Shown here: positions 1,417-64,000 of the stretch, piece by piece
How the letters are laid out: each line of letters opens with the position of its first letter
Numbering within the stretch: position 1 is the stretch's first letter
Source: Bacteroidales bacterium
GTDB lineage: Bacteria; Bacteroidota; Bacteroidia; Bacteroidales; P3
Assembly: GCA_017448905.1 (NCBI GenBank)
Contig: JAFSKP010000060.1
Coordinates: 15,867 to 79,866 of the forward strand
Direction: 5' to 3'
DNA: 64,000 nucleotides
Notes under the pieces: model-generated
What the model saw: the letters and a program-made list of their open reading frames with translations, nothing else
The model's database searches: none
Told to the model about the DNA's origin: nothing
Position numbers and translations under genes: made by a program

Positions 1417-3951
1417 ATGGTTCGTACAGCTGCTTTACTGATCCTGCTCTCGCCGTCACTGTCAGCGGTTAGTCAGGTTGTGGTGGGAGGCAGTTATGAT
1501 GTCGACTACCTTACTCCCAAGACATACGAGATTGGAGGCATCACTATCGACAATGAGGATAACCTCGACAACAGAATGGTACTGCTTGTCGCCGGACTGC
1601 AGGTGGGCGATGTCGTCAAGATTCCCGGCGACAAGATATCCACCGCCATCGACAATCTCTGGCAGCAGGGACTCTTCGAGGATGTGCAGATCCTCCTTTC
1701 CCGTATCCAGGACGACAAGGTGTTCCTCAAGATCGTTCTCCGGGGTCGCCCGAAGCTTGCTGCGGTGAGCTTCAACGGCGTCAGTGGTAGCGATGCCGAG
1801 AAGTTAGGCAAGGATTTCGACATACATGTCGGCGACGTGGTGACCGAAAACATTCTGAAGACCACCTGCAACAAAGCCAAGTCGTACTATGCCGACAAAG
1901 GCTTCACCAACGTCGAAGTCAACACCATACTGAAAAGCGATACCTCCGGGAAAGGCAACTATGTGATACTTACCTACGACATCAAGAAGGGCAAACGCGT
2001 GAAAATCGACTCCCTGATTATTGTGGGCAATGAGAATGTGGCTACCAACAAGTTGCTTCGCAAGATGAAGAACACCCATGATGTGCATTATGCCAAGAAG
2101 CTCTTCTTCTGGACCAAGGGGTTCTGGAGCCGCTCCAAATACCGTGAGTTCGAGCTTAGCAACGACCTCGACCAGCTCATAGCATACTATAACGAGCTTG
2201 GCTACCGTGACGCCCGCATTGTGAACGACACCGTATGGAATGTCGCCCCCGAGGACCTGAAGATGTCCAAAGGCAAGAAACGCAGACAAGACCGTGTCAA
2301 GGTGAAAGTAGAAGTTTTCGAGGGCCGTCCATACTTCTTCCGCAACATCACTTTCTCGGGCAATACCATCTACTCTTCCGAACTGCTTGCACAGCACTTG
2401 CGCATCAAGAAGGGAGACCCCTACAACAAGACCACCCTCGAGACGAACCTCACCTACAACCCTAGCGGTACCGACATCACCTCGATGTATATGGACAATG
2501 GCTACCTCTTCTTCAACGCCACCCCCGTCGAGGTGGCCGTGACGGGTGACTCCATCGACATCGAAATACGCATTGTCGAGGGCAAGCAGGCTCGCATCCG
2601 CAACGTCGTCGTCGAGGGTAACACCATCACCAACGACAAGATAATCTACCGCGAGCTGCATACCAAACCCGGCGACCTTTTCAGTCGCGATGCCGTCATC
2701 CGCAGTCGTCGTGAGCTTGTGACGTTAGGCTACTTCAAGGAGGAGACTCTCGTCCCCGAGCCTCGTCCCAACGCGCAGGACGGCACTGTCGACATCATCT
2801 ACAAAGTCGAGGAGAACCAGACTAGCCAGCTCCAGCTGCAAGGCGGCTACGGCAACGGCATGGTCATTGGACAGGTGGGTATACAGCTCAACAATTTCTC
2901 TGCACGCAACATCTTCAAGAGAGGGGCTTGGCAGCCTCTCCCTGCCGGCGACGGCCAGAAACTGTCACTCAACGCCGTCAGTAACGGACGCTACTACTAT
3001 GCCCTCAACGCTGGTTTCACCGAGCCTTGGCTCGGAGGCAAGCGTCCGCAGTCGCTCGGCATCTCGGTGTCGCACAACCTCCTCAGCAACGGCTTCTGGC
3101 AGGAGAAGGGAAGCAGCAGCTACTATAGCCTCTCCATTACAGGTGGTACAGTCTCCCTTACACGCCGTCTCAAATGGCCCGACGACTACTTCATCATGTC
3201 GCAGTCGCTCTCCTATCGCCACTATAATCTCAACAACTATACCTCGCTTACAGCCTATTTCACCGACGGCCATGCCAACGACCTGGCATACAGCTTAGGG
3301 TTCAGCCGCAATTCGCTCGACTCGCCCATCTACCCGCGTAGCGGCTCGGAATTGTCTTTGCAGGGCTTCGTAACCCCTCCCTATTCGCTGCTGAACGGCA
3401 AGGACTACAGCACAATGTCGGCCTCCGACCGCTACCGTTGGCTTGAGTACTACAAGCTTAACCTGCGCGGTTCATGGATGCTCAACCTCATAGGCGACAT
3501 TGTCCTCAATGCCCGTTTCCGTTTTGGATATATGGGCTACTATAACAGCGATATCGGCCTTTCGCCCTTCGGACGCTACTATGTGGGTGGCGACGGCCTT
3601 TCCTCCTGGCTGCTCGACGGTCGTGAAGTCATCCCTCTGCGCGGATACAACAATTCCAGCCTGAGTCCCAACAACGGAGCTTCAGTCTTCGACCGCTACA
3701 CCCTCGAGCTTCGCCAACCCATCATTGAGAGTGCCAGTGCCACGATATATGTCCTCGGCTTCCTTGAGGGTGGCAACTCATGGGCCACCATGAAAGAGTT
3801 CCAGCCCTTCAAGGTCTACAACTCCGCAGGTCTCGGCGTCCGCCTATATATGCCTATGTTCGGACTGATCGGCATCGACTGGGGCTATGGATTCGATGGC
3901 CTCAATGGCGGCAGCCAGTTCCACTTCAGCATAGGACAAAGTATCGACTGA
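1417..3951 (+). CDS. bamA: Outer membrane protein assembly factor BamA
   Basis: About 850 aa with POTRA-like repeats and a C-terminal barrel ending GGSQFHFSIGQSID. The uppS-bamA-skp order is typical. The start at 1417 gives the signal peptide MVRTAALLILLSPSLSAVSQ; alternative starts are 1336 (ATG) and 1279 (TTG). Confidence 0.88.
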   Translation: MVRTAALLILLSPSLSAVSQVVVGGSYDVDYLTPKTYEIGGITIDNEDNLDNRMVLLVAGLQVGDVVKIPGDKISTAIDNLWQQGLFEDVQILLSRIQDDKVFLKIVLRGRPKLAAVSFNGVSGSDAEKLGKDFDIHVGDVVTENILKTTCNKAKSYYADKGFTNVEVNTILKSDTSGKGNYVILTYDIKKGKRVKIDSLIIVGNENVATNKLLRKMKNTHDVHYAKKLFFWTKGFWSRSKYREFELSNDLDQLIAYYNELGYRDARIVNDTVWNVAPEDLKMSKGKKRRQDRVKVKVEVFEGRPYFFRNITFSGNTIYSSELLAQHLRIKKGDPYNKTTLETNLTYNPSGTDITSMYMDNGYLFFNATPVEVAVTGDSIDIEIRIVEGKQARIRNVVVEGNTITNDKIIYRELHTKPGDLFSRDAVIRSRRELVTLGYFKEETLVPEPRPNAQDGTVDIIYKVEENQTSQLQLQGGYGNGMVIGQVGIQLNNFSARNIFKRGAWQPLPAGDGQKLSLNAVSNGRYYYALNAGFTEPWLGGKRPQSLGISVSHNLLSNGFWQEKGSSSYYSLSITGGTVSLTRRLKWPDDYFIMSQSLSYRHYNLNNYTSLTAYFTDGHANDLAYSLGFSRNSLDSPIYPRSGSELSLQGFVTPPYSLLNGKDYSTMSASDRYRWLEYYKLNLRGSWMLNLIGDIVLNARFRFGYMGYYNSDIGLSPFGRYYVGGDGLSSWLLDGREVIPLRGYNNSSLSPNNGASVFDRYTLELRQPIIESASATIYVLGFLEGGNSWATMKEFQPFKVYNSAGLGVRLYMPMFGLIGIDWGYGFDGLNGGSQFHFSIGQSID

Positions 3952-56804: not shown

Positions 56805-57902
56805 ATGGAAACTATCATCAGAACCAAGGTATTCAATCTCATTATTCTCGACAAGAGCGGCTCTATGTCCTCCATTGCCAAAGCAGCCATTGCCGGTTTC
56901 AACGAGACCGTCGGAGGCATCCGCTCTGCACAGAAGCAGTTCGCCGACACACAGGAGCATTATGTCAGCCTGCTTCCCTTCTGCGCCTGCTCTATGGAGT
57001 ATGTCTATGACTGTGTTCCCGTGGAGAAGGTCAAGAATCTCACATCCAAGGACTACCAGCCCTGCTGCGGAACACCGCTCTACGATGCCATGGGCAAGGG
57101 TATTAACGACCTCTACAAGAAGACCAAGGATATGGAGAACGCCACCGTTGTCGTGACCATCATCACCGACGGTATGGAGAATGCCTCCCATGAGTACAGC
57201 GGCAAGGCCATCAAAGCCCTCGTAGACAAGATGCGTGATGACCACGGTTGGAACTTCGCCTACATTGGCACCAACCAGGACGTGGAGTCCGTGGCCATCA
57301 ACCTGTCTATCACCAACTCTTTCTTCTTCGAGGACACCGAGGAGGGTATGACGAAGGCTTGGGAGCGCGAGCGCAAATCCAAACAGCGCATGTACAGCCG
57401 CCTTGACGAGGCCGCTTGCTACTGCTGTGATTCGGCGGAACCAATGTCAGCAGAGGAGCGTAAAAGACACATACATGACGTGCTTCGTAAGAATAAGAAC
57501 TATCAGGAGTCCAGCGAGTTCGCGCACCGCGTTACCCCCAACCACATCAAGGCATTGAAGCCTGGTCAGGTGTTCGTCTTTGGAAGCAACGGAATGGGTG
57601 CACATGGCGGAGGAGCCGCACTTGCCGCTGTGAAGCACTTCGGGGCTGTCATGGGACAGGCCGAGGGAATGCAGGGCAACAGCTACGCCATCAACTCGAT
57701 GGACGGTTTGAAGGTGCTGCAGGAGCAGGCCGAGCGCTTCATCCACTATGCCAAGGAGCATCCGGAGCGCACTTTCCTCGTCACCGCCATCGGATGCGGC
57801 ATCGCAGGTTACACGCCGGAACAGGTGGCTCCGCTGTTTGTCAAGGCTGTTGATGTTGAGAACATTTGGCTCCCGAAGTCGTTCTGGGATGAATTGTTCT
57901 AA
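56805..57902 (+). CDS. Fusion protein: N-terminal vWA domain plus C-terminal Gly-rich Rossmann-like domain (A1S_2505-type phage-associated family, from memory)
   Basis: MIDAS motifs LDKSGSM, GTPLYDA and TDGMEN. The C-terminal part is GQVFVFGSNGMGAHGGGAALAAVKHFGAVMGQAEGMQGNSYAI. Confidence 0.7.
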   Translation: METIIRTKVFNLIILDKSGSMSSIAKAAIAGFNETVGGIRSAQKQFADTQEHYVSLLPFCACSMEYVYDCVPVEKVKNLTSKDYQPCCGTPLYDAMGKGINDLYKKTKDMENATVVVTIITDGMENASHEYSGKAIKALVDKMRDDHGWNFAYIGTNQDVESVAINLSITNSFFFEDTEEGMTKAWERERKSKQRMYSRLDEAACYCCDSAEPMSAEERKRHIHDVLRKNKNYQESSEFAHRVTPNHIKALKPGQVFVFGSNGMGAHGGGAALAAVKHFGAVMGQAEGMQGNSYAINSMDGLKVLQEQAERFIHYAKEHPERTFLVTAIGCGIAGYTPEQVAPLFVKAVDVENIWLPKSFWDELF

Positions 57903-57920
57903 CTTTAATACATTATTGCT

Positions 57921-58247
57921 ATGAATCCAGACAGAGACAAGCCAGGACATTGGAACCTCCGCAAAGGCCACGTGGATGAAATCAGCGAGCAGCGTCTGAC
58001 GGAGACGATGGAGATGCTGCAACGGGTGGCCGACAATACCAACACCGACCTTGAAGACGTGATAAGCGTCTATAATGCAGCCTCCCGAAACCGTCTCACG
58101 GAAGTATTACTGGACAGCGGCGATGCCTTCGACTGGGCCGTGGATGACATCAAGGAGTGGAAGAAAGAACACGAATACACCAAAGTTATGCTCGCCGGTG
58201 ACTATAATGCCGACGAAGTCAGAGTAAAGATGATAAATGACGATTAA
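57921..58247 (+). CDS. Hypothetical acidic protein (108 aa)
   Basis: An ORF packed between neighbours on the same strand. No motif was recognised. Confidence 0.45.
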   Translation: MNPDRDKPGHWNLRKGHVDEISEQRLTETMEMLQRVADNTNTDLEDVISVYNAASRNRLTEVLLDSGDAFDWAVDDIKEWKKEHEYTKVMLAGDYNADEVRVKMINDD

Positions 58248-58259
58248 AACCAGACAATT

Positions 58260-59018
58260 ATGATAGGAGCAATTATAGGCGACATAGTAGGGTCGCGATT
58301 TGAATTTCACAACCACCGCTCGACAGAGTTCGAGTTCTTCCACCCCGACTGCACCTTCACCGATGACACGGTGATGACGGTGGCCGTGGCGGATGCCATT
58401 ATGAATGGCCGTCCTTTCGGGGAGGTGATGCACGAGTATGGCCGCAAGTACCCCAACCGTGGTTATGGCGGACGGTTCTTCAACTGGCTGCTTTCCAAAA
58501 CACCGAAGCCCTACAATTCCTTCGGCAACGGTTCGGCCATGCGTGTTTCCCCGTGTGCTTATCTTGCCAAAGGCAACCGCGAGTGGGCTCTAACGTGGGC
58601 AACAGCCTCCGCAGTCTGTACCCACAACCACCCAGAGGGTGTAAAAGGAGCGATGGCTATTACCGACTGCATCTTGTTGGCACAGCAACACGTATCAAAG
58701 GATGAGATACGAAAAATCGCCGAGGAACTATATGATTACGACATGGACTTCACTATCGACCAGATACGTCCGAGGTTCGGGTTCAACGAGACGTGCCAAA
58801 AGACTGTTCCGCAGGCCATTGAATGCTTCCTGGAGAGCCATGACTTTGAGAGTGCTATCCGCATTGCCATCTCGCTCGGAGGCGACAGCGATACAATTGC
58901 CAACATTACGGGCGGTATGGCGGAGGCTTATTACGGAGTGCCGGAGGATATGGTTGTCAAAGCCATGTCTATGTTGCCAGAAGAGATGCGGAGTGTTGTG
59001 AAGGCGATGTATGAATAA
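58260..59018 (+). CDS. ADP-ribosylglycohydrolase family protein
   Basis: GAIIGDIVGSRFEF, FTDDTVMT, GNGSAMRVSP and SLGGDSDTIA (binuclear metal-site motifs). Confidence 0.85.
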   Translation: MIGAIIGDIVGSRFEFHNHRSTEFEFFHPDCTFTDDTVMTVAVADAIMNGRPFGEVMHEYGRKYPNRGYGGRFFNWLLSKTPKPYNSFGNGSAMRVSPCAYLAKGNREWALTWATASAVCTHNHPEGVKGAMAITDCILLAQQHVSKDEIRKIAEELYDYDMDFTIDQIRPRFGFNETCQKTVPQAIECFLESHDFESAIRIAISLGGDSDTIANITGGMAEAYYGVPEDMVVKAMSMLPEEMRSVVKAMYE

Positions 59019-59081
59019 GTTGCCCGTTTGGGCAATAAAAATCGCTTTCCTGCGTTATTTCAGAGTATTAGACAATAGATT

Positions 59082-59687
59082 ATGACCACAAAAGACAAGA
59101 TACTGGAACTTCTCGACAAGACCGACCGCCAGGGTATCGATGAGGTGATGGACTGGCTGAAAGGCAGCGGCTTCTTCATGGCTCCTGCTTCCACCAACTT
59201 CCACGGCAACTACGAAGGTGGTCTGGCCGACCATTCCCTCAACGTGTACACCGCAGCCATGCGTTTGCGTTCAACGGCATTGAGTCTCAATCCAACGTTG
59301 GAGAGCGAGCTGCCGGAGGATAGTGTTACCATCGCCACCCTGCTGCACGACATCTGCAAGGCTGATGTGTACAAGGAAATCACCAAGAAGCGCCAGAACA
59401 GTTTCGGACGCTGGGAGGAATACCAGGGCTATACGGTGGATTACAGCAACTTTCCCCTTGGCCATGGCGAGAAGAGCGTCATCATTCTGCTCCGTTTGGG
59501 TTTGGACTTGACCGATGCCGAGATAGCTGCCATCCGCTGGCACATGACGGCTTGGGATTTGCCCTTCCAGAGCCGTGAGGCGTTGGGCAACATCAACGCA
59601 GCCAAAGACAAATACCCGTTGTGCGCCTTGGTTCAGTTGGCCGATGGCTTTGCCTCGTCGCTGATGGAAGACACTGTAAAAAACTAA
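59082..59687 (+). CDS. HD-domain phosphohydrolase
   Basis: GGLADHSLNV, LLHDICK, GHGEKS and IRWHM. Confidence 0.75.
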   Translation: MTTKDKILELLDKTDRQGIDEVMDWLKGSGFFMAPASTNFHGNYEGGLADHSLNVYTAAMRLRSTALSLNPTLESELPEDSVTIATLLHDICKADVYKEITKKRQNSFGRWEEYQGYTVDYSNFPLGHGEKSVIILLRLGLDLTDAEIAAIRWHMTAWDLPFQSREALGNINAAKDKYPLCALVQLADGFASSLMEDTVKN

Positions 59688-60355
59688 CAACGTAAACCAG
59701 CACAGAACCGATTTCGTGTCTGGGTGTTAGCTGGTGAGTCTTTATAGTATCTCATCAAGGCGAGTGGGTGGGTGAATGAGTTAGCGTCAAACTCCTTGTC
59801 AAGATAGTCGGCAGCATGATTCACGACAGCCTCGCTAAAAAAGGCTTCTGCCTTATCCCTAAAATCGGATGACTTCGCCAGTTTACCGAAACCGAGGTAT
59901 ATGGGGGCTTTGATACTGACTATATCGTGCTTGAAAATGGTGTCGTTAATCTCTCCGAGCATCGCAAGTTCCTTGTTCGTCTTCAAGGCTTTGCCCAAGT
60001 CCTGCTCTTTCAGATAGAACAGATTGAATATCTGGATTACTCCGTTCAGTTGCATCTTGTCCGGCACATTGTAGTACAAGGCAAACAACTCGGCCACGCA
60101 ATACATTGTCTGGTCGCCCTTGAACTCAAACCACTCCTTTCCTTCATCGCCAGGATATTCAAATGCAGCCAAATTAGCAAGCAAAGAAGAGTCTGTAATG
60201 CTGATGTCTTTCCCGTTTTTGAAGTTTGCGCTTCCTGGGTTCTTCATCACGACGGAGCCGATGATGTCCCATGAGTTTCCAAACTGGAGCAATGTGCGCC
60301 AGCGATAACCGTTCCCGCAATCGTCAATGGCCTGATAATGTGTGTAGACTTTCAT
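59684..60355 (-). CDS. DUF1643 domain protein
   Basis: IIGSVVMKNPGSA, as in DUF1643 (recalled). It is convergent with the HD gene. Confidence 0.65.
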   Translation of the reverse strand: MKVYTHYQAIDDCGNGYRWRTLLQFGNSWDIIGSVVMKNPGSANFKNGKDISITDSSLLANLAAFEYPGDEGKEWFEFKGDQTMYCVAELFALYYNVPDKMQLNGVIQIFNLFYLKEQDLGKALKTNKELAMLGEINDTIFKHDIVSIKAPIYLGFGKLAKSSDFRDKAEAFFSEAVVNHAADYLDKEFDANSFTHPLALMRYYKDSPANTQTRNRFCAGLRC

Positions 60356-60369
60356 GCCTTTTGACCGCT

Positions 60370-61398
60370 TTATCTTGAATTTCTTAATATTCCGTCGGCT
60401 GCATCACGATGTCGTTTGCGTATCGAGTTGGCGAGGAATACCGGTTCAACCACACGGATGCCTGGCCCAAACCCAAGGAACGCACGTATCAATTCCGGAT
60501 TTATGATGACGTTGATTTCAAACAACATCTCTCCATTGTCGGTTTGCTCTAAAAGGGTTTGGGAACAATGGATGGGTTTGGTAAGGAAATAAGGCGCGTC
60601 CTCTGTGGATGCCCAGAACTTTACGGTCGTTGTCTTGCTTGACAGGTCGCGAGACACGCCCACCATCTCGGAGAAATATTTCTCGGCATCGAAATTCTTT
60701 GGCACGTTGTTCGGCTCGTCAGAAAGTGTTTCAATGCTGCCTATACGGTCAAGAGCGAGAGTGAGGAGCTTTTTCGGATTGTCTTTCCGTCTTCCTACAA
60801 CGAACCATCTGTTGTTGAACTCTTTCAGCACATAGGGATAGAATACGAATGAAGAGGGCTTTATGGCTCGGAATGACTGGTATTCGTACTTTTGTGCATG
60901 GCCTCGGCGCAGGGCATCATATATCACTGGGACAAAGTTCAACCCCTTCAATCGCTCGTTGCTCTCCATCATTATCAAAGCCTTGCTGTTCGCTGTGGCA
61001 AGGTTCACCTGGTCTTCAAGTCTGCTCACCAGGTCTGCGATGCCGGCCATTGCGGGGAAGCCTACCAGTTGCTTCAACACCCCCACGGCTCCCGACAACT
61101 CGTCCAGGTCATGTTCCGTAAGCGGACTGTGCATGATACTGTAGTCAGGATCTTCGTATGTGTAGTATTTGTTATCCACCACGATGATAGGAGCGTTGTA
61201 GCCGAGACGGTCGCTGCGCATAGTCTGGATGTCGAGCTGGATGGTGCGTCGGCTGATACCCTTGCGGATGCCCTCGTATTCATACAGCGCATCGGAGCAG
61301 GCTTCGATAAGGTCGTCAAGCGTCCATTGCCGGTAGCGGTTGCAGAGGCAATGGTCTATGGTCTTGTAGCGCAGCAGCGCATTGCGGTTGACAGGCAT
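60370..61398 (-). CDS. WYL-domain transcriptional regulator (HTH-WYL-WCX architecture)
   Basis: N-terminus MPVNRNALLRYKTIDHCL...RTIQLDIQTMR, central FVFYPYVLKEFNNRWFVVG (WYL-like). A minus-strand -7 box at 61420-61427 supports the start at 61398. Confidence 0.8.
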   Translation of the reverse strand: MPVNRNALLRYKTIDHCLCNRYRQWTLDDLIEACSDALYEYEGIRKGISRRTIQLDIQTMRSDRLGYNAPIIVVDNKYYTYEDPDYSIMHSPLTEHDLDELSGAVGVLKQLVGFPAMAGIADLVSRLEDQVNLATANSKALIMMESNERLKGLNFVPVIYDALRRGHAQKYEYQSFRAIKPSSFVFYPYVLKEFNNRWFVVGRRKDNPKKLLTLALDRIGSIETLSDEPNNVPKNFDAEKYFSEMVGVSRDLSSKTTTVKFWASTEDAPYFLTKPIHCSQTLLEQTDNGEMLFEINVIINPELIRAFLGFGPGIRVVEPVFLANSIRKRHRDAADGILRNSR

Positions 61399-61419
61399 AG
61401 TGTTGTGTTTTTCGTGGTG

Positions 61420-61427
61420 CAAAGATA
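61420..61427 (-). promoter_or_regulatory. -7 box TATCTTTG (minus strand) for the WYL regulator
   Basis: The reverse complement of CAAAGATA. Confidence 0.5.
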
Positions 61428-61589
61428 CGCAATTATTCTGGAACTGGTATGATGGGTAGCCGTCAGATTGCTGCCTTTTGAAGCATTATAATGAAAAATT
61501 TTGCATTTTATCATATTGATATTCAATAGTATAAAAAATTTTTCAAAAATATTTTCAAAGTACGCAAAAAGATTGCGCACCGACTATAG

Positions 61590-61597
61590 TATCTTTG
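61590..61597 (+). promoter_or_regulatory. -7 box TATCTTTG for the Y-RNA-like array / rsr-rtcB operon
   Basis: Perfect TAnnTTTG match about 50 nt upstream of the first RNA unit. Confidence 0.55.
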
Positions 61598-61646
61598 CAC
61601 CGAGAAAACGAAAACAGAAGTTCTTTGATAGATTGACCACATGAAA

Positions 61647-61757
61647 GGTGACGGTTGCCGTAGCGGGGAGTTACTTCGTTTGCTAAACCGGCAAGGTCTG
61701 AAACCACCGTTGGATTATTCCAAAAGTCTCCCTGCGTCTGTTTCACCGTTGCCTTGT
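61647..61757 (+). ncRNA. Y-RNA-like element, unit 1
   Basis: UUGCCGUA plus hairpin GCGGGG-AGUUA-CUUCGU. UUGCCGUAGC pairs with GCUA..CGGCAA. It ends at CACCGUUGCCUUG. Boundaries are approximate. Confidence 0.45.
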
Positions 61758-61764
61758 TATAAGG

Positions 61765-62033
61765 TGGAGTTGCCGTAGTGGAGGATTACTTCGTCCCAGA
61801 GCCCGTGAGTCGAATGACTCGGATGGGCAGTTAGAAGCCTCCATGAATGTCGCACTTCACCTTTATGAATTAGGCAAGTGCTGTAGGTAAGACTTCCATC
61901 GGTCTGTAAAACCTCTTGTGTCGCGGGTTGTCGGCAGAGCCGACGCCATAGCACGATTCCCGTCGAGGCTTGTCCTCGTAGCTCAGCTGGTAGAGCAAAG
62001 TTTATTGTCTTTCCGTCCGTTGCCTTGCTTTTA
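61765..62033 (+). ncRNA. Y-RNA-like element, unit 2, with tRNA-like segment (YrlA-like)
   Basis: UUGCCGUA plus GUGGAG-GAUUA-CUUCGU, several nested hairpins, the tRNA D-arm sequence GUAGCUCAGCUGGUAGAGCA at 61978-61997, and an end at CCGUUGCCUUGCUUUU. Confidence 0.5.
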
Positions 62034-62042
62034 CAACAAACA

Positions 62043-62165
62043 GAATGCCGTAGGATACGGATACTTCGCGCCTCTTTAGGGGATGTTTTTGGCGATTCCC
62101 CGACCGTTATCTGCCTGTCGCTTCTGCTTTTCTTCAAGGTCGCCGCATACCGCAGCACCTTGGAT
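62043..62165 (+). ncRNA. Y-RNA-like element, unit 3 (most diverged)
   Basis: AUGCCGUAGGAUACGGAUACUUCG shares the motif frame. Boundaries are approximate. Confidence 0.3.
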
Positions 62166-62274
62166 AGAAACGGTTGCCGTAGTGAAGAGTTACTTCATTT
62201 GGAATCAGCAAAGTCCGTCCGACTGAAACTCGGACATCATAAGCCTCTCCACGCCCGTTGCACCGTTTTCTTTG
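62166..62274 (+). ncRNA. Y-RNA-like element, unit 4
   Basis: Closing stem AGAAACGG / CCGUUUUCU, UUGCCGUA plus GUGAAG-AGUUA-CUUCAU, and internal hairpin GUCCGA-CUGAAAC-UCGGAC. Confidence 0.45.
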
Positions 62275-62281
62275 AAAACCT

Positions 62282-63829
62282 ATGTTTAACAATATATACG
62301 TTACGAAGATGAATTACAATTCGATGCTGAAAGAAGAGAATGTCGTCCAGAACCATGAGGGAGCCAGGGCTTACGCCATGTCCCCCGAGCTGGAGCTTTA
62401 CACCGCCGTTGTGACTGCCTCGTTGAGTGACACATTCTATGAGAAGCAGGATGAGCGGGTGAACCGTATCTCGGAACTCGTGGGCAAAGTCGCCCCAGAG
62501 TTCGTGGCTCGTCTTGCCGTGTACACACGCACAGAGATGCACCTTCGTAGCATCCCTCTGTTGCTGCTGGTGGAGCTGGCCAAAGTTCATAACGGCGATG
62601 ACCTTGTCGCGCGCGCCGTGGAGAAGACCGTCCTCCGTGCCGACGAGATTATGGAACTGCTGATGTGCTACCAGTGGCGCAACCCCTCCGATGGTATCAA
62701 GAAGCTCGGCAAGCTCTCCCGTCAGATTCAGAACGGCCTACAGCGTGCGTTCAATAACTTCGACGAGTACCAGTTCGCCAAGTATGACCGCGACAACCTC
62801 GAAGTGAAACTCCGCGATGCCCTGTTCCTCGTCCATCCGAAGGCGAAGGATGAGCAGCAGCAGATGCTGTTCGACAAGATTGTGACAGGTGAGCTTGAGT
62901 CTCCCTACACCTGGGAGACACAGCTCTCTGCGCTCGGCCAGCAGCAGTTTGAATCGGAGGAGGCGAAGCAGAAGGCCATACGTGAGAAGTGGGAGGAACT
63001 TATCGACAGCGGCAAGCTGGGCTATATGGCCCTGATGCGCAACCTCCGCAACATGCTCCAGGCCGGTGTCTCATTGTCGCAGATGCTTAACGTGGCGGCT
63101 CGTCTCTCAAATCCGATGCAGGTCGAGTCATCCAAGCAGCTGCCGTTCCGTTACCTTTCTGCATACCGAGAGATAGAGAATGTGACCTCCGTGCATACCT
63201 CGATGCTGATGAGCGCGTTGGAGTCCGCTGTCAAGTGTTCCGCCGCCAATATCGACGGATTCGACGAGAACACCCGCGTGCTGATTGCATCCGACGTGAG
63301 CGGCTCGATGCACCACTCCGTGAGCCAGAGGAGTTCCGTGCAGTTCTATGACATCGGCCTTTTGCTGTCGATGCTCTTCAAGAGCCGCTGCAAACAGGTG
63401 GTGTCGGGTATCTTCGGCGATGTCTGGAAGGTGGTAAATGTCCCTGCCGACAATATACTGATGGCCACCCGTCAGATGGATAGGCTTTGCAACTCCGTCG
63501 GATATGGCACCAATGCCTTCGAGGTATTCGACTGGTTGATAGTAAATAATGTGGTTGTTGACAAAGTGATGATGTTCACCGACATGCAGATGTGGAACAA
63601 CACCGGCGACAACCGAAATATTGAAAAAATGTGGGGGAAATACAAGAAGAAGTCTCCAGGAGCAAAACTGTACTTGTTCGACCTTGCGGGCTACGGCCAG
63701 GCTCCCTTGCGGCTGGTTAAGCCGGACATCTATCTGGTTGCGGGATGGAGCGACCGCATCTTTGAGATACTCTCTGCTGTTGACAGGGGCGAGGACGCTC
63801 TGGATGTTATTAACAAGATTGAAGTTTAG
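62282..63829 (+). CDS. rsr: Ro60 ortholog Rsr (TROVE domain plus C-terminal vWA)
   Basis: NHEGARAY and TROVE HEAT-like repeats, with C-terminal MIDAS ASDVSGSM. The alternative start at 62309 (MNYNSML) fits homolog N-termini better. Confidence 0.88.
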   Translation: MFNNIYVTKMNYNSMLKEENVVQNHEGARAYAMSPELELYTAVVTASLSDTFYEKQDERVNRISELVGKVAPEFVARLAVYTRTEMHLRSIPLLLLVELAKVHNGDDLVARAVEKTVLRADEIMELLMCYQWRNPSDGIKKLGKLSRQIQNGLQRAFNNFDEYQFAKYDRDNLEVKLRDALFLVHPKAKDEQQQMLFDKIVTGELESPYTWETQLSALGQQQFESEEAKQKAIREKWEELIDSGKLGYMALMRNLRNMLQAGVSLSQMLNVAARLSNPMQVESSKQLPFRYLSAYREIENVTSVHTSMLMSALESAVKCSAANIDGFDENTRVLIASDVSGSMHHSVSQRSSVQFYDIGLLLSMLFKSRCKQVVSGIFGDVWKVVNVPADNILMATRQMDRLCNSVGYGTNAFEVFDWLIVNNVVVDKVMMFTDMQMWNNTGDNRNIEKMWGKYKKKSPGAKLYLFDLAGYGQAPLRLVKPDIYLVAGWSDRIFEILSAVDRGEDALDVINKIEV

Positions 63830-63835
63830 CAGATT

Positions 63836-64000
63836 ATGGAAAAAGTAATAAGAATAGGCGATTCGGTGGTCAAGATGTGGCTCACCGAAGTCGAGGAATC
63901 GGCACGCGAGCAGGTGGAGAACCTTGCCTCGCTGCCTTTCGTATATCATCATATTGCGCTCATGCCCGACTGTCATGCCGGAATGGGAATGCCTATCGGC
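63836..64000 (+). CDS. rtcB: RNA ligase RtcB (N-terminal 55 codons; continues beyond the window)
   Basis: My own translation is MEKVIRIGDSVVKMWLTEVEESAREQVENLASLPFVYHHIALMPDCHAGMGMPIG. It contains the hallmark MPDxHxGxG metal-binding motif. Confidence 0.88.
   Translation, partial: MEKVIRIGDSVVKMWLTEVEESAREQVENLASLPFVYHHIALMPDCHAGMGMPIG

What the first reader, a model, noticed from the sequence alone, without database searches (positions are those of the whole stretch)
61590..62274. Tandem array of about four Y-RNA-like elements sharing a UUGCCGUA-hairpin motif between the WYL regulator and rsr
- Shared motif: downstream of a perfect -7 box (61590-61597), and before rsr, four units each carry (U)UGCCGUA followed by a 6-bp stem and an RRUUA pentaloop. 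The stems are GCGGGG-AGUUA-CUUCGU (61662-61678), GUGGAG-GAUUA-CUUCGU (61777-61793) and GUGAAG-AGUUA-CUUCAU (62181-62197), plus a diverged AUGCCGUAGGAUACGGAUACUUCG (62045-62068).
- Covariation: the 3' strand CUUCRU is constant, while the 5' strand varies through C-G to U-A and G-U to A-U changes.
- Repeated core: a GUUGC core (GUUGCC in five copies, GUUGCA at 62256), or AUGCC in the diverged unit, recurs 7 times (61654, 61748, 61769, 62018, 62045, 62173, 62256). Units end in ...CCGUUGCC followed by U-rich sequence.
- Closing stem: unit 4 has a clear closing stem, AGAAACGG/CCGUUUUCU.
- Comparison with known systems: bacterial rsr loci usually encode one or two Y RNAs, so four tandem, mutually diverged units with a shared protein-binding-like motif would be unusual. 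The motif may be the Rsr-binding site or a processing signal.
Basis: partly seen in the sequence, partly recalled or inferred. Interest (0 to 1): 0.7.

Follow-up and report, generated by a model that had tools for sequence, protein, structure and literature searches.

The report
Five tandem Y RNA genes before rsr
The stretch between the WYL regulator gene and rsr encodes five (not four) back-to-back small structured RNAs of the bacterial Y RNA kind. Each has the same docking stem for the Ro-like protein Rsr and a different top domain, and arrays of 3-7 such RNAs turn out to be normal next to rsr across the phylum Bacteroidota.

Summary
The repeated motif is real and far from chance. The array has five units, not four: 61647-61753, 61762-61862, 61870-62032, 62037-62130 and 62166-62270, all on the + strand.

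A covariance model built only from units of other genomes finds exactly these five in the 64-kb window (E 2e-7 to 2e-18). It also finds 272 more in 67 of 73 Bacteroidota rsr loci, always on the rsr strand and next to rsr, mostly 3-7 per locus.

The purine-rich strand after GUAG instead pairs long-range with the 3' end.

The shared architecture is that of a Y RNA:
- an outer stem formed by the 5' and 3' ends;
- a conserved internal loop, 5' UGCCGUAG opposite 3' GNYUGUYGC;
- an inner stem;
- a conserved UUACUUCG;
- a variable apical module.

Both stems covary strongly (score 0.61 against 0.21 in shuffles).

The third unit is a diverged YrlA (tRNA-like) RNA with a 24-nt insertion in its T loop. 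The fifth carries a hairpin resembling a tRNA D arm plus anticodon arm.

A single Bacteroides-type promoter box, no internal terminator and very short spacers suggest one precursor transcript with rsr-rtcB. Rsr binding and processing are inferred, not shown.

Verdict: a real, new variant of a known kind.

The parts
60370..61398 (-). Divergent WYL-WCX transcription regulator gene
   Evidence: Pfam hits to WYL (2e-8) and WCX (2.4e-10). A homologue lies upstream and divergent in 64 of 153 related loci and is never found elsewhere in them.
61420..61427 (-). Bacteroides-type -7 promoter box (TATCTTTG) for the WYL gene; lies inside one arm of a 28-nt inverted repeat
   Evidence: inverted repeat I1: 61401-61428 / 61589-61616.
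61590..61597 (+). Bacteroides-type -7 promoter box (TATCTTTG), the only one between here and rsr
   Evidence: A TAnnTTTG box lies 38-61 nt upstream of the first unit in 20 of the 30 related Bacteroidales loci tabulated, and inside the array in only 3.
61647..61753 (+). Unit 1 (107 nt). Outer stem 61647-61655/61745-61753; motif UGCCGUAG 61656-61663; inner stem 61663-61670/61728-61735; UUACUUCG 61671-61678; variant 3' loop GUCUGUUUC 61736-61744.
   Evidence: Model R1 63.7 bits, E 3.7e-17. The MFE fold gives the same architecture. BLAST matches in 42 loci. Coordinates.
61762..61862 (+). Unit 2 (101 nt). Outer stem 61762-61770/61854-61862; motif 61771-61778; inner stem 61778-61784/61838-61844; 3' loop GAAUGUCGC 61845-61853.
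   Evidence: R1 62.2 bits, E 1e-16. BLAST matches in 24 loci.
61870..62032 (+). Unit 3 (163 nt), YrlA-type with a tRNA-like module. Motif UGCUGUAG 61879-61886; T arm 61923-61963 interrupted by a 24-nt insertion (61930-61953); acceptor-like hairpin 61964-61978; D arm 61979-61997; 3' loop 62014-62023; outer 3' strand 62024-62032.
   Evidence: Rfam YrlA RF02553 33.5 bits (gathering score 69), E 2.7e-5. R1 31.7 bits, E 2.1e-7. Aligned with orthologues. The insertion has no match in 153 loci.
62037..62130 (+). Motif AUGCCGUAG 62045-62053; inner stem 62053-62060/62104-62111; apical GGGG/CCCC helix 62079-62082/62098-62101; possible pseudoknot partners CGCC 62069-62072 and GGCG 62091-62094.
   Evidence: R1 58.9 bits, E 1e-15. 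BLAST matches in 34 loci. The GGGG/CCCC helix has compensatory variants in orthologues, but the test of the second pseudoknot stem was inconclusive.
62135..62162 (+). Spacer hairpin CAAGGU...ACCUUG between units 4 and 5; specific to this genome
   Evidence: MFE fold. No match in 153 loci.
62166..62270 (+). Unit 5 (105 nt). Outer stem 62166-62174/62262-62270; motif 62175-62182; inner stem 62182-62189/62245-62252; D-arm-like hairpin 62201-62216; anticodon-arm-like hairpin 62218-62234 (loop CUGAAAC).
   Evidence: R1 68.0 bits, E 1.8e-18. RNAalifold on 22 related type E units finds the apical hairpin with compensatory changes. BLAST matches in 55 loci.
62282..63829 (+). rsr (Ro60 orthologue: TROVE domain plus Ro60-type vWA domain)
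63836..64000 (+). Start of rtcB (RNA ligase), cut by the end of the window
   Evidence: Pfam RtcB 2.7e-8.

Best explanation
The region holds five tandem genes for Y RNAs, the small RNAs that dock onto the ring protein Rsr (bacterial Ro60).

Each RNA is closed by pairing of its 5' and 3' ends. Just inside that stem lies a conserved asymmetric internal loop: 5' U-GC-CGUA opposite 3' GNYUGUY-GC, with the two G-C pairs formed across it. A 7-8 bp inner stem follows, then a conserved UUACUUCG. This shared lower part is the presumed Rsr-binding module. The upper part differs from unit to unit and is the presumed effector or mimic module:
- unit 3: a tRNA elbow-like domain (YrlA type);
- unit 5: a hairpin like a tRNA D arm plus anticodon arm;
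- unit 4: a GGGG/CCCC helix, possibly part of a pseudoknot;
- units 1 and 2: two other conserved folds.

The five are most likely transcribed from the single promoter at about 61590 as one precursor together with rsr and rtcB, under the divergent WYL regulator. They would then be cut apart in the short A/U-rich spacers and trimmed back to the Rsr-protected stems.

Shown here: the units, their common structure with covariation, their conservation and position, and the promoter layout. Inferred: transcription as one precursor, processing, Rsr binding, and what the apical modules do.
For: 1. An independent covariance model (58 units from other genomes, no window sequence) finds exactly five hits in 64 kb on both strands, all in this array.
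2. On 73 Bacteroidota rsr loci the same model gives 272 hits. All are on the rsr strand and all abut rsr. Hits per locus: 0 in 6 loci (mostly cut contigs), 1 in 2, 2 in 6, 3 in 15, 4 in 23, 5 in 8, 6 in 10, 7 in 3.
3. Covariation was tested on a register-fixed alignment whose 3' anchors were chosen by sequence motif only. 79.5% of cells pair, against 57% in shuffles and 41-51% when the partners are slid. The covariation score is 0.609 against 0.213 (0 of 500 shuffles reach it). 16 of 19 pairs show changes on both sides. In a cross-check with the anchor chosen on the outer stem alone, the inner stem formed 6-7 of 7 pairs in 84 of 115 units.
4. The MFE fold of each window unit, computed separately, gives the same architecture.
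5. Rfam YrlA matches unit 3 (E 2.7e-5), and unit 3 aligns with canonical YrlA-type units of relatives.
6. GCCGUAG is one base from the published Rsr-binding motif GNCGAAN0-1G. The conserved UA after the inner stem matches YrlA's conserved YUAY/UA kink.
7. The locus has one -7 box upstream and none inside, no + strand terminator, and spacers of 4-35 nt. M. smegmatis YrlA/YrlB and D. radiodurans Yrn2-tRNAAsp-Yrn1 are likewise made as precursors upstream of rsr.
8. Context: a WYL regulator, rsr and rtcB.
Against: - There are no expression, processing or binding data of any kind.
- No unit reaches an Rfam gathering score.
- The 5' motif is not an exact match to the published motif.
- Unit 3 has degenerate motifs (UGCUGUAG, UUCCAUCG) and a T-loop insertion seen nowhere else, so it may be decaying.
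- Unit 1 has a variant 3' loop (UC instead of GC).
- The promoter consensus is recalled from knowledge of Bacteroides promoters and is a pattern match only.
Confidence: 0.8

Rival explanations
1. The region is a long structured 5' leader of the rsr-rtcB mRNA. It acts in cis (attenuator, riboswitch-like or protein-titrating leader) and is not processed into separate stable RNAs.
For: A single upstream promoter box and no terminator before rsr. The last unit ends 11 nt before the first ATG of rsr.
Against: - In Sphingobacteriia, Chitinophagia, Cytophagia and Flavobacteriia the same units lie downstream of rsr, and in L028, L030 and L068 on both sides. That position is incompatible with a leader function.
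- The units are self-contained, each with its own closing stem.
- True tRNA genes are embedded in the arrays of relatives, which implies processing.
- No Rfam cis-regulatory family matches.
Confidence: 0.06
2. The repeats act at the DNA level, either as operator sites for the WYL regulator or as a family of small repeated or mobile elements that happens to sit here.
For: Repeats at roughly 100-130 bp spacing beside a regulator gene. WYL regulators bind nucleic acids (general knowledge).
Against: - Compensatory base-pair changes in two helices, which fall to 41-51% cells paired (against 79.5%) when the pairing partners are slid by one to three columns, indicate selection on a single-stranded RNA fold.
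- All 277 hits are on one strand relative to rsr, and none occurs elsewhere in the 64-kb window or in the flanks of the loci.
- Where the arrays lie downstream of rsr they are far from the regulator's promoter.
Confidence: 0.03
3. The units are tRNA-derived or tRNA-like decoy RNAs that work without Rsr, for example as baits for tRNA-targeting nucleases or modification enzymes. The shared stem would serve only as a stability or processing element.
For: - tRNA-like features in unit 3, in unit 5 and in type B units of relatives, which ARAGORN calls tRNA-Leu.
- True tRNAs embedded in arrays.
- A published suggestion that YrlA could inhibit an anticodon nuclease (PMC7790460).
Against: - The invariant part is the stem and internal loop, not the tRNA-like part. 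About 58% of units have no T arm.
- Strict linkage to rsr on the same strand.
- Similarity of the motif to the known Rsr-binding motif.
- This rival overlaps with the main explanation rather than excluding it.
Confidence: 0.08

Closest known systems
Salmonella Typhimurium YrlA and YrlB (rsr-yrlBA-rtcBA operon; Rfam RF02553 YrlA)
   Same: - Small RNAs encoded on the rsr strand in an rsr-rtcB locus.
- A terminal stem with a conserved 5'-strand motif at a helix/internal-loop junction, then an inner stem, a conserved YUA, and an effector module.
- One RNA carries a permuted tRNA-like domain (T arm, acceptor-like hairpin, D arm), as unit 3 does.
   Different: - Five RNAs instead of two, placed upstream rather than downstream of rsr.
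- A WYL regulator instead of the sigma-54 activator RtcR.
- The motif is GCCGUAG, not GNCGAAN0-1G. There are extra invariant elements (UUACUUCG; 3' GNYUGUYGC).
- The Rfam model scores only 33.5 bits (gathering score 69) on unit 3 and nothing on the others.
- The window's T loop carries a 24-nt insertion.
Deinococcus radiodurans Yrn1/Yrn2 with RNAs a, b, d upstream of rsr
   Same: Several small RNAs encoded upstream of rsr. Yrn2-tRNAAsp-Yrn1 is made as one precursor. Relatives of this window likewise embed tRNA genes in the array. Yrn1 was modelled with an anticodon-arm-like hairpin, as unit 5 is here.
   Different: In D. radiodurans only two of the RNAs have the canonical Ro-binding stem. Here all five share one well-conserved module. 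No sequence similarity was detected.
Mycobacterium smegmatis YrlA and YrlB
   Same: [quoted passage not shown]
   Different: Two RNAs, both with T-arm features. Here there are five, of which four have no T arm.
Vertebrate Y RNAs (2-4 per species)
   Same: A small family of modular RNAs sharing a Ro60-binding stem and differing in the upper module.
   Different: Separate RNA polymerase III genes, the motif GGUCCGA with a bulged helix, and no tRNA-like modules described.

Membership tests
Bacterial Y RNA (Rsr-associated small RNA) | Encoded close to rsr and on the same strand | tested here: met
   All five units lie on the + strand, 12-635 nt upstream of rsr. The same holds for all 272 hits in 67 related loci.
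Bacterial Y RNA (Rsr-associated small RNA) | Long stem formed by pairing of the 5' and 3' ends, holding the Ro-binding site | tested here: met
   Outer and inner helices: 79.5% of cells paired, covariation score 0.609 against 0.213 in shuffles and 0.13-0.25 when slid. The MFE folds agree.
Bacterial Y RNA (Rsr-associated small RNA) | Conserved 5'-strand motif GNCGAAN0-1G (GGUCCGA in vertebrates) | tested here: inconclusive
   The window has GCCGUAG four times and GCUGUAG once. These are one or two substitutions from the published pattern, in the equivalent position. Whether Rsr recognises it is unknown.
Bacterial Y RNA (Rsr-associated small RNA) | Size of about 80-130 nt | tested here: met
   The model-defined units are 107, 101, 94 and 105 nt. 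Unit 3 is 163 nt because of its insertion. True RNA ends are unknown.
Bacterial Y RNA (Rsr-associated small RNA) | Bound by Rsr and dependent on it for accumulation | not testable with these tools
   Needs immunoprecipitation and an rsr deletion.
YrlA (Rfam RF02553) | Score at or above the Rfam gathering cut-off (69 bits) | tested here: not met
   Unit 3 scores 33.5 bits, E 2.7e-5. The other units give no hit at E up to 10. YrlA-type units of 15 related loci also stay below the cut-off.
YrlA (Rfam RF02553) | tRNA-like module: T arm, acceptor-like hairpin and D arm in permuted order | tested here: inconclusive
   In unit 3 the D arm (61979-61997) and acceptor-like hairpin (61964-61978) are canonical. 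The T stem is present, but its loop carries a 24-nt insertion that orthologues lack. Units 1, 2, 4 and 5 have no T or D arm.
tRNA gene | Cloverleaf recognised by ARAGORN or the Rfam tRNA model | tested here: not met
   No tRNA is found in the window. Relatives do carry true tRNA genes inside their arrays.
Cis-regulatory leader / riboswitch | Fixed position in the 5' untranslated region of the regulated gene; match to a known family | tested here: not met
   The arrays lie downstream of rsr in most non-Bacteroidales loci. No Rfam match.

The most novel reading that the evidence does not exclude
Bacteroidota rsr loci may encode a panel of 3-7 RNAs that dock on Rsr and whose top domains each imitate a different piece of the translation apparatus:
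- the tRNA elbow (YrlA type, unit 3 here);
- a tRNA D arm plus anticodon arm whose 'anticodon' positions vary freely between species (unit 5 here);
- a class-II-tRNA-like fold (type B in relatives);
- in at least two genomes, a near-copy of the 58-nt L11-binding GTPase-associated centre of 23S rRNA.

Together with the RtcB ligase and a WYL sensor-regulator, such a panel would act as decoys, baits or damage sensors for nucleases and toxins that attack tRNA and rRNA. Alternatively it would act as adaptors that steer Rsr and its partner enzymes to each class of damaged RNA.
Probability: 0.3. Interest if true: 0.8.

Novelty: new variant of a known kind. Interest (0 to 1): 0.6.

Why it matters
Bacterial Y RNAs have been studied in three species, and those without a tRNA-like domain have largely escaped computational discovery (PMC4201824). 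This locus and its relatives add several things.

- A sharply defined, phylum-wide Rsr-docking module. It can be used to find Y RNAs that the Rfam YrlA model misses at its curated cut-off.
- Evidence that Bacteroidota, which include abundant gut and rumen commensals, routinely carry 3-7 different Y RNAs per rsr locus.
- Recurrent apical types that can be compared across species. This makes the old question of what the upper Y RNA module is for directly testable: different modules on one common stem, in culturable organisms, beside an RNA ligase gene.
- A practical warning for annotation. Some units are called as tRNA genes or rRNA fragments by standard tools.

Tried and rejected
Tested on 157 distinct homologous segments and rejected as a conserved feature.
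- **First permutation test.** It searched freely for the 3' partners and separated cognate from non-cognate pairs poorly (12.5 against 11.0 of 14). I replaced it with motif-anchored, fixed-register tests.
- **Pseudoknot in unit 4.** Compensatory variants are visible by eye. MAFFT did not keep the register, and a cognate versus non-cognate test of the second stem was uninformative (4.11 against 3.92). Only the GGGG/CCCC helix is claimed.
- **Rfam E-value scan of L028 3600-6000.** It returned nothing, although the gathering-mode scan of the whole locus had reported the 23S fragment at 63.9 bits. I did not resolve this discrepancy. The sequence itself aligns without gaps to the E. coli 1051-1108 segment as I recall it, with 47 of 58 bases identical.
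- **Supplementary tables of Chen et al. 2014** are not held. I could not check which Bacteroidetes YrlA candidates were already listed.
- **Metagenome scan**. No locus was much closer than 79-84% Rsr identity. The T-loop insertion of unit 3 and the unit 4-5 spacer hairpin could not be confirmed in a sister genome.
- **Literature searches** for Bacteroidota Y RNAs found nothing.
- **Sigma-70 promoter scan** is not applicable to Bacteroidales and was not used as evidence.
Full report
**Layout**

The finding lies between a divergent WYL-WCX regulator gene (60370-61398, minus strand) and rsr (62282-63829; TROVE plus Ro60-type vWA domains). rtcB follows, starting at 63836. The intergenic region begins with an AT-rich stretch. 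It holds two Bacteroides-type -7 boxes (TATCTTTG), one for each direction, at 61420-61427 (-) and 61590-61597 (+). No further box occurs on either strand before rsr.

Yes, in its core.
- TGCCGTAG plus about 15 further bases recurs at 61656, 61771, 62046 and 62175.
- The 8-mer TGCYGTAG occurs 16 times in the window against 2.84 expected. Five copies sit on the + strand within 527 nt.
- The quoted hairpin coordinates are off by one base.

**What the units look like**

RNAfold, run separately on each of the five stretches, returns the same plan every time:
- a stem formed by the two ends;
- a bulged U;
- two G-C pairs formed by the GC of UGCC with a GC on the 3' side;
- an internal loop;
- a second stem that starts at the G of GUAG;
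- a variable top.

Examples are unit 1 GCGGGGAG/CUCCCUGC, unit 2 GUGGAGG/CCUCCAU and unit 5 GUGAAGAG/CUCUCCAC.

**Related loci**

A search with the Rsr protein in one genome per species gave 73 loci, all Bacteroidota apart from one bin labelled Limnohabitans.
- In nearly all Bacteroidales loci the motif occurs 2-7 times in tandem directly upstream of rsr.
- In Sphingobacteriia, Chitinophagia, Cytophagia and Flavobacteriia it occurs directly downstream of rsr.
- The extended consensus is UGCCGUAG, 7-9 variable bases, then (U/A)UACUUCG. The distance from the G of GUAG to the C of CUUC is 11 nt in 129 of 163 units.
- On the 3' side a second conserved strand, G-N-Y-U-G-U-Y-G-C, separates the two 3' stem strands.

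**Testing the two structure models**

*Long-range model.* I took every unit in which the 3' motif NNNN[GT]T[ACT]GC occurred exactly once, so pairing played no part in the choice. I spliced fixed-length 5' and 3' segments and aligned them without gaps (78 distinct units).
- For the proposed 19 pairs, 79.5% of cells form standard pairs. This compares with 57.0% in column shuffles and 41-51% when the 3' partners are slid by one to three columns.
- The covariation score is 0.609, against 0.213 in shuffles (none of 500 reaches it) and 0.13-0.25 when slid.
- 16 of 19 pairs show changes on both sides.
- As a cross-check I chose the 3' anchor on the outer stem alone. The inner stem then formed 6-7 of 7 pairs in 84 of 115 distinct units.

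Only the three loop-proximal pairs (RAG with CUU) are commonly possible. The local hairpin is therefore a side effect of a purine-rich helix strand lying next to an invariant CUUC. It is not a conserved element.

**An independent model**

I built a covariance model (R1: 105 positions, 19 pairs) from 58 units of other genomes, deliberately leaving out the window.

In the whole window, both strands, it finds five hits and nothing else:

| Unit | Coordinates | Bits |
|---|---|---|
| 1 | 61647-61753 | 63.7 |
| 2 | 61762-61862 | 62.2 |
| 3 | 61870-62032 | 31.7 |
| 4 | 62037-62130 | 58.9 |
| 5 | 62166-62270 | 68.0 |

On the 73 loci it finds 272 hits. All are on the rsr strand and all lie in arrays abutting rsr:

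| Hits per locus | 0 | 1 | 2 | 3 | 4 | 5 | 6 | 7 |
|---|---|---|---|---|---|---|---|---|
| Number of loci | 6 (mostly cut contigs) | 2 | 6 | 15 | 23 | 8 | 10 | 3 |

A five-unit array is therefore ordinary for this phylum.

**What kind of RNA this is**

- Rfam has no match at gathering scores anywhere in the window. At relaxed thresholds, YrlA (the tRNA-like bacterial Y RNA) matches 61896-62026 with 33.5 bits (cut-off 69) and E 2.7e-5.
- Alignment with relatives shows unit 3 is the orthologue of a canonical YrlA-type unit (T arm, acceptor-like hairpin, D arm). In the window it carries a 24-nt insertion in the T loop (61930-61953) and weakened motifs. The insertion has no match in 153 loci.
- The published description of bacterial Y RNAs fits the shared module: a long terminal stem carrying the Ro60 site, a 5'-strand motif GNCGAAN0-1G, a conserved YUA, and then an effector module (PMC4201824; bioRxiv 10.1101/312249). 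GCCGUAG is one substitution away from the published motif.
- I conclude that all five units are Y RNAs in architecture and context. One is of the YrlA subtype. Rsr binding remains an inference.

**The variable modules**

BLAST finds matches to all five window units in many of the 153 loci: 42, 24, 50, 34 and 55 loci respectively. Short hits to the shared motif inflate some of these counts.

*Unit 5 type (usually the last unit before rsr).* RNAalifold on 22 units of this type finds the common stems and an apical hairpin with clear compensatory changes (for example C-G 14, U-A 6; U-A 12, A-U 7, C-G 3).
- It has five pairs and a seven-base loop, Y-U-N-N-U-A-A. Loop positions 3 and 4 vary freely and the others are nearly fixed.
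- A D-arm-like UAGCU...AGAGC hairpin and a single purine precede it. This arrangement resembles the D arm, position 26 and anticodon arm of a tRNA.
- Such hairpins occur in 38 of 267 distinct units, against 3.8 in shuffled controls.
- In the window the D-like stem is GGA/UCC and the loop is CUGAAAC (62201-62234).
- This resemblance is my reading, not a tested homology.

*Unit 4 type.* It has a conserved GGGG/CCCC helix with compensatory variants (GGGAG/CUCCC, GGGAGG/CCUCCC). A possible second, pseudoknotted stem could not be confirmed.

**How it probably works**

- A TAnnTTTG box lies 38-61 nt upstream of the first unit in 20 of the 30 related Bacteroidales loci tabulated, as it does in the window (50 nt). 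It lies inside the array in only three.
- The window has no + strand terminator-like site.
- Spacers are 8, 7, 4 and 35 nt, and the last unit ends 11 nt before the first ATG of rsr.
- Relatives embed true tRNA genes (Met-CAT, Lys, Ser) between units. The window has lost the tRNA that relatives carry between the unit 3 and unit 4 types.
- This matches the precursor arrangement shown experimentally in D. radiodurans (Yrn2-tRNAAsp-Yrn1) and M. smegmatis.
- The divergent WYL regulator is conserved in 64 of 153 loci, always upstream and on the opposite strand.

I therefore propose one stress-regulated transcript covering the Y RNAs, rsr and rtcB. It would be cut in the spacers, and each RNA would then dock on Rsr by its common module and present a different upper module. 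What those modules recruit or imitate is unknown. Published ideas are tethering to PNPase and competitive inhibition of an anticodon nuclease.

**Comparison and novelty**

- Multi-Y-RNA loci, tRNA mimicry and precursor processing are known.
- I could not find the following in Rfam or in the searchable literature: the Bacteroidota-specific docking module, the regular presence of 3-7 units, and the recurrent non-tRNA-elbow unit types.
- I could not inspect the supplementary tables of the 2014 survey. They probably list some Bacteroidetes YrlA-type candidates.
- I rate this a new variant of a known kind.

Noticed in passing
L028:3872-3929 (inside Y unit L028:3808-3971); also L068:3467-3653: The apical domain of one Y unit in two uncultured Bacteroidales/Prevotella genomes is a near-copy of the 58-nt L11-binding GTPase-associated centre of 23S rRNA. 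Rfam LSU_rRNA_bacteria model positions 1079-1158 match at 63.9 bits (cut-off 50). It aligns without gaps, 47 of 58 identical, to E. coli 1051-1108 as I recall that sequence. This would be an rRNA-mimicking Y RNA.
   Followed up: partly
L003:3704-3778, L007:3658-3731, L009:3725-3799, L065:3675-3749, L073:3660-3733, L012:3603-3692 and 3792-3865: True tRNA genes (Met-CAT; in L012 Ser and Lys), scoring 50-66 bits with the Rfam tRNA model, are embedded between Y units in relatives. The window has only a 4-nt spacer (62033-62036) at the corresponding place.
   Followed up: partly
L009:3287-3424, L065:3085-3222, L006:3679-3815, L011:84-221: A unit type absent from the window (GUGAGUGCCGUAGGAGAGG...) is called tRNA-Leu(TAG) by ARAGORN and weakly by the Rfam tRNA model in L007 and L005. 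It risks being annotated as a tRNA gene in metagenome-assembled genomes.
   Followed up: no
window 61930-61953: A 24-nt insertion (GUCGGCAGAGCCGAC hairpin plus GCCAUAGCA) sits inside the T loop of the YrlA-type unit. It has no match in 153 related loci. The same unit also has weakened docking motifs, so it may be decaying or specialised.
   Followed up: partly
window 61401-61428 and 61589-61616: A 28-nt inverted repeat (82% complementary) flanks the 160-nt AT-rich intergenic region. Each arm contains a TATCTTTG -7 box and the first ~20 nt of the divergent transcripts (GTATCTTTGCACC...GAAAAC). It is a candidate pair of operator sites for the WYL regulator.
   Followed up: no
window 62135-62162: A hairpin (CAAGGU-16 nt-ACCUUG) lies in the unusually long 35-nt spacer between units 4 and 5. 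It has no match in related loci and its role is unknown.
   Followed up: no
L031-L067 versus L001-L030: The Y RNA array sits upstream of rsr in most Bacteroidales, downstream of rsr in the other Bacteroidota classes, and on both sides in L028, L030 and L068. The WYL regulator stays upstream and divergent throughout.
   Followed up: partly
window 56805-60355: Genes just upstream of the WYL regulator include an ADP-ribosylglycohydrolase (58260-59015) and an HD-domain protein (59082-59684), plus three ORFs with no Pfam match. They may form a stress or conflict-related gene neighbourhood.
   Followed up: no
window, 11 sites outside the array (e.g. 2847, 3405, 10548, 37251, 37380, 43805): TGCYGTAG is also more frequent than expected outside the array. 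Eleven copies lie elsewhere, against about 2.8 expected for the whole window. None carries the extended motif or matches the covariance model. This is probably a coding-sequence composition effect.
   Followed up: partly
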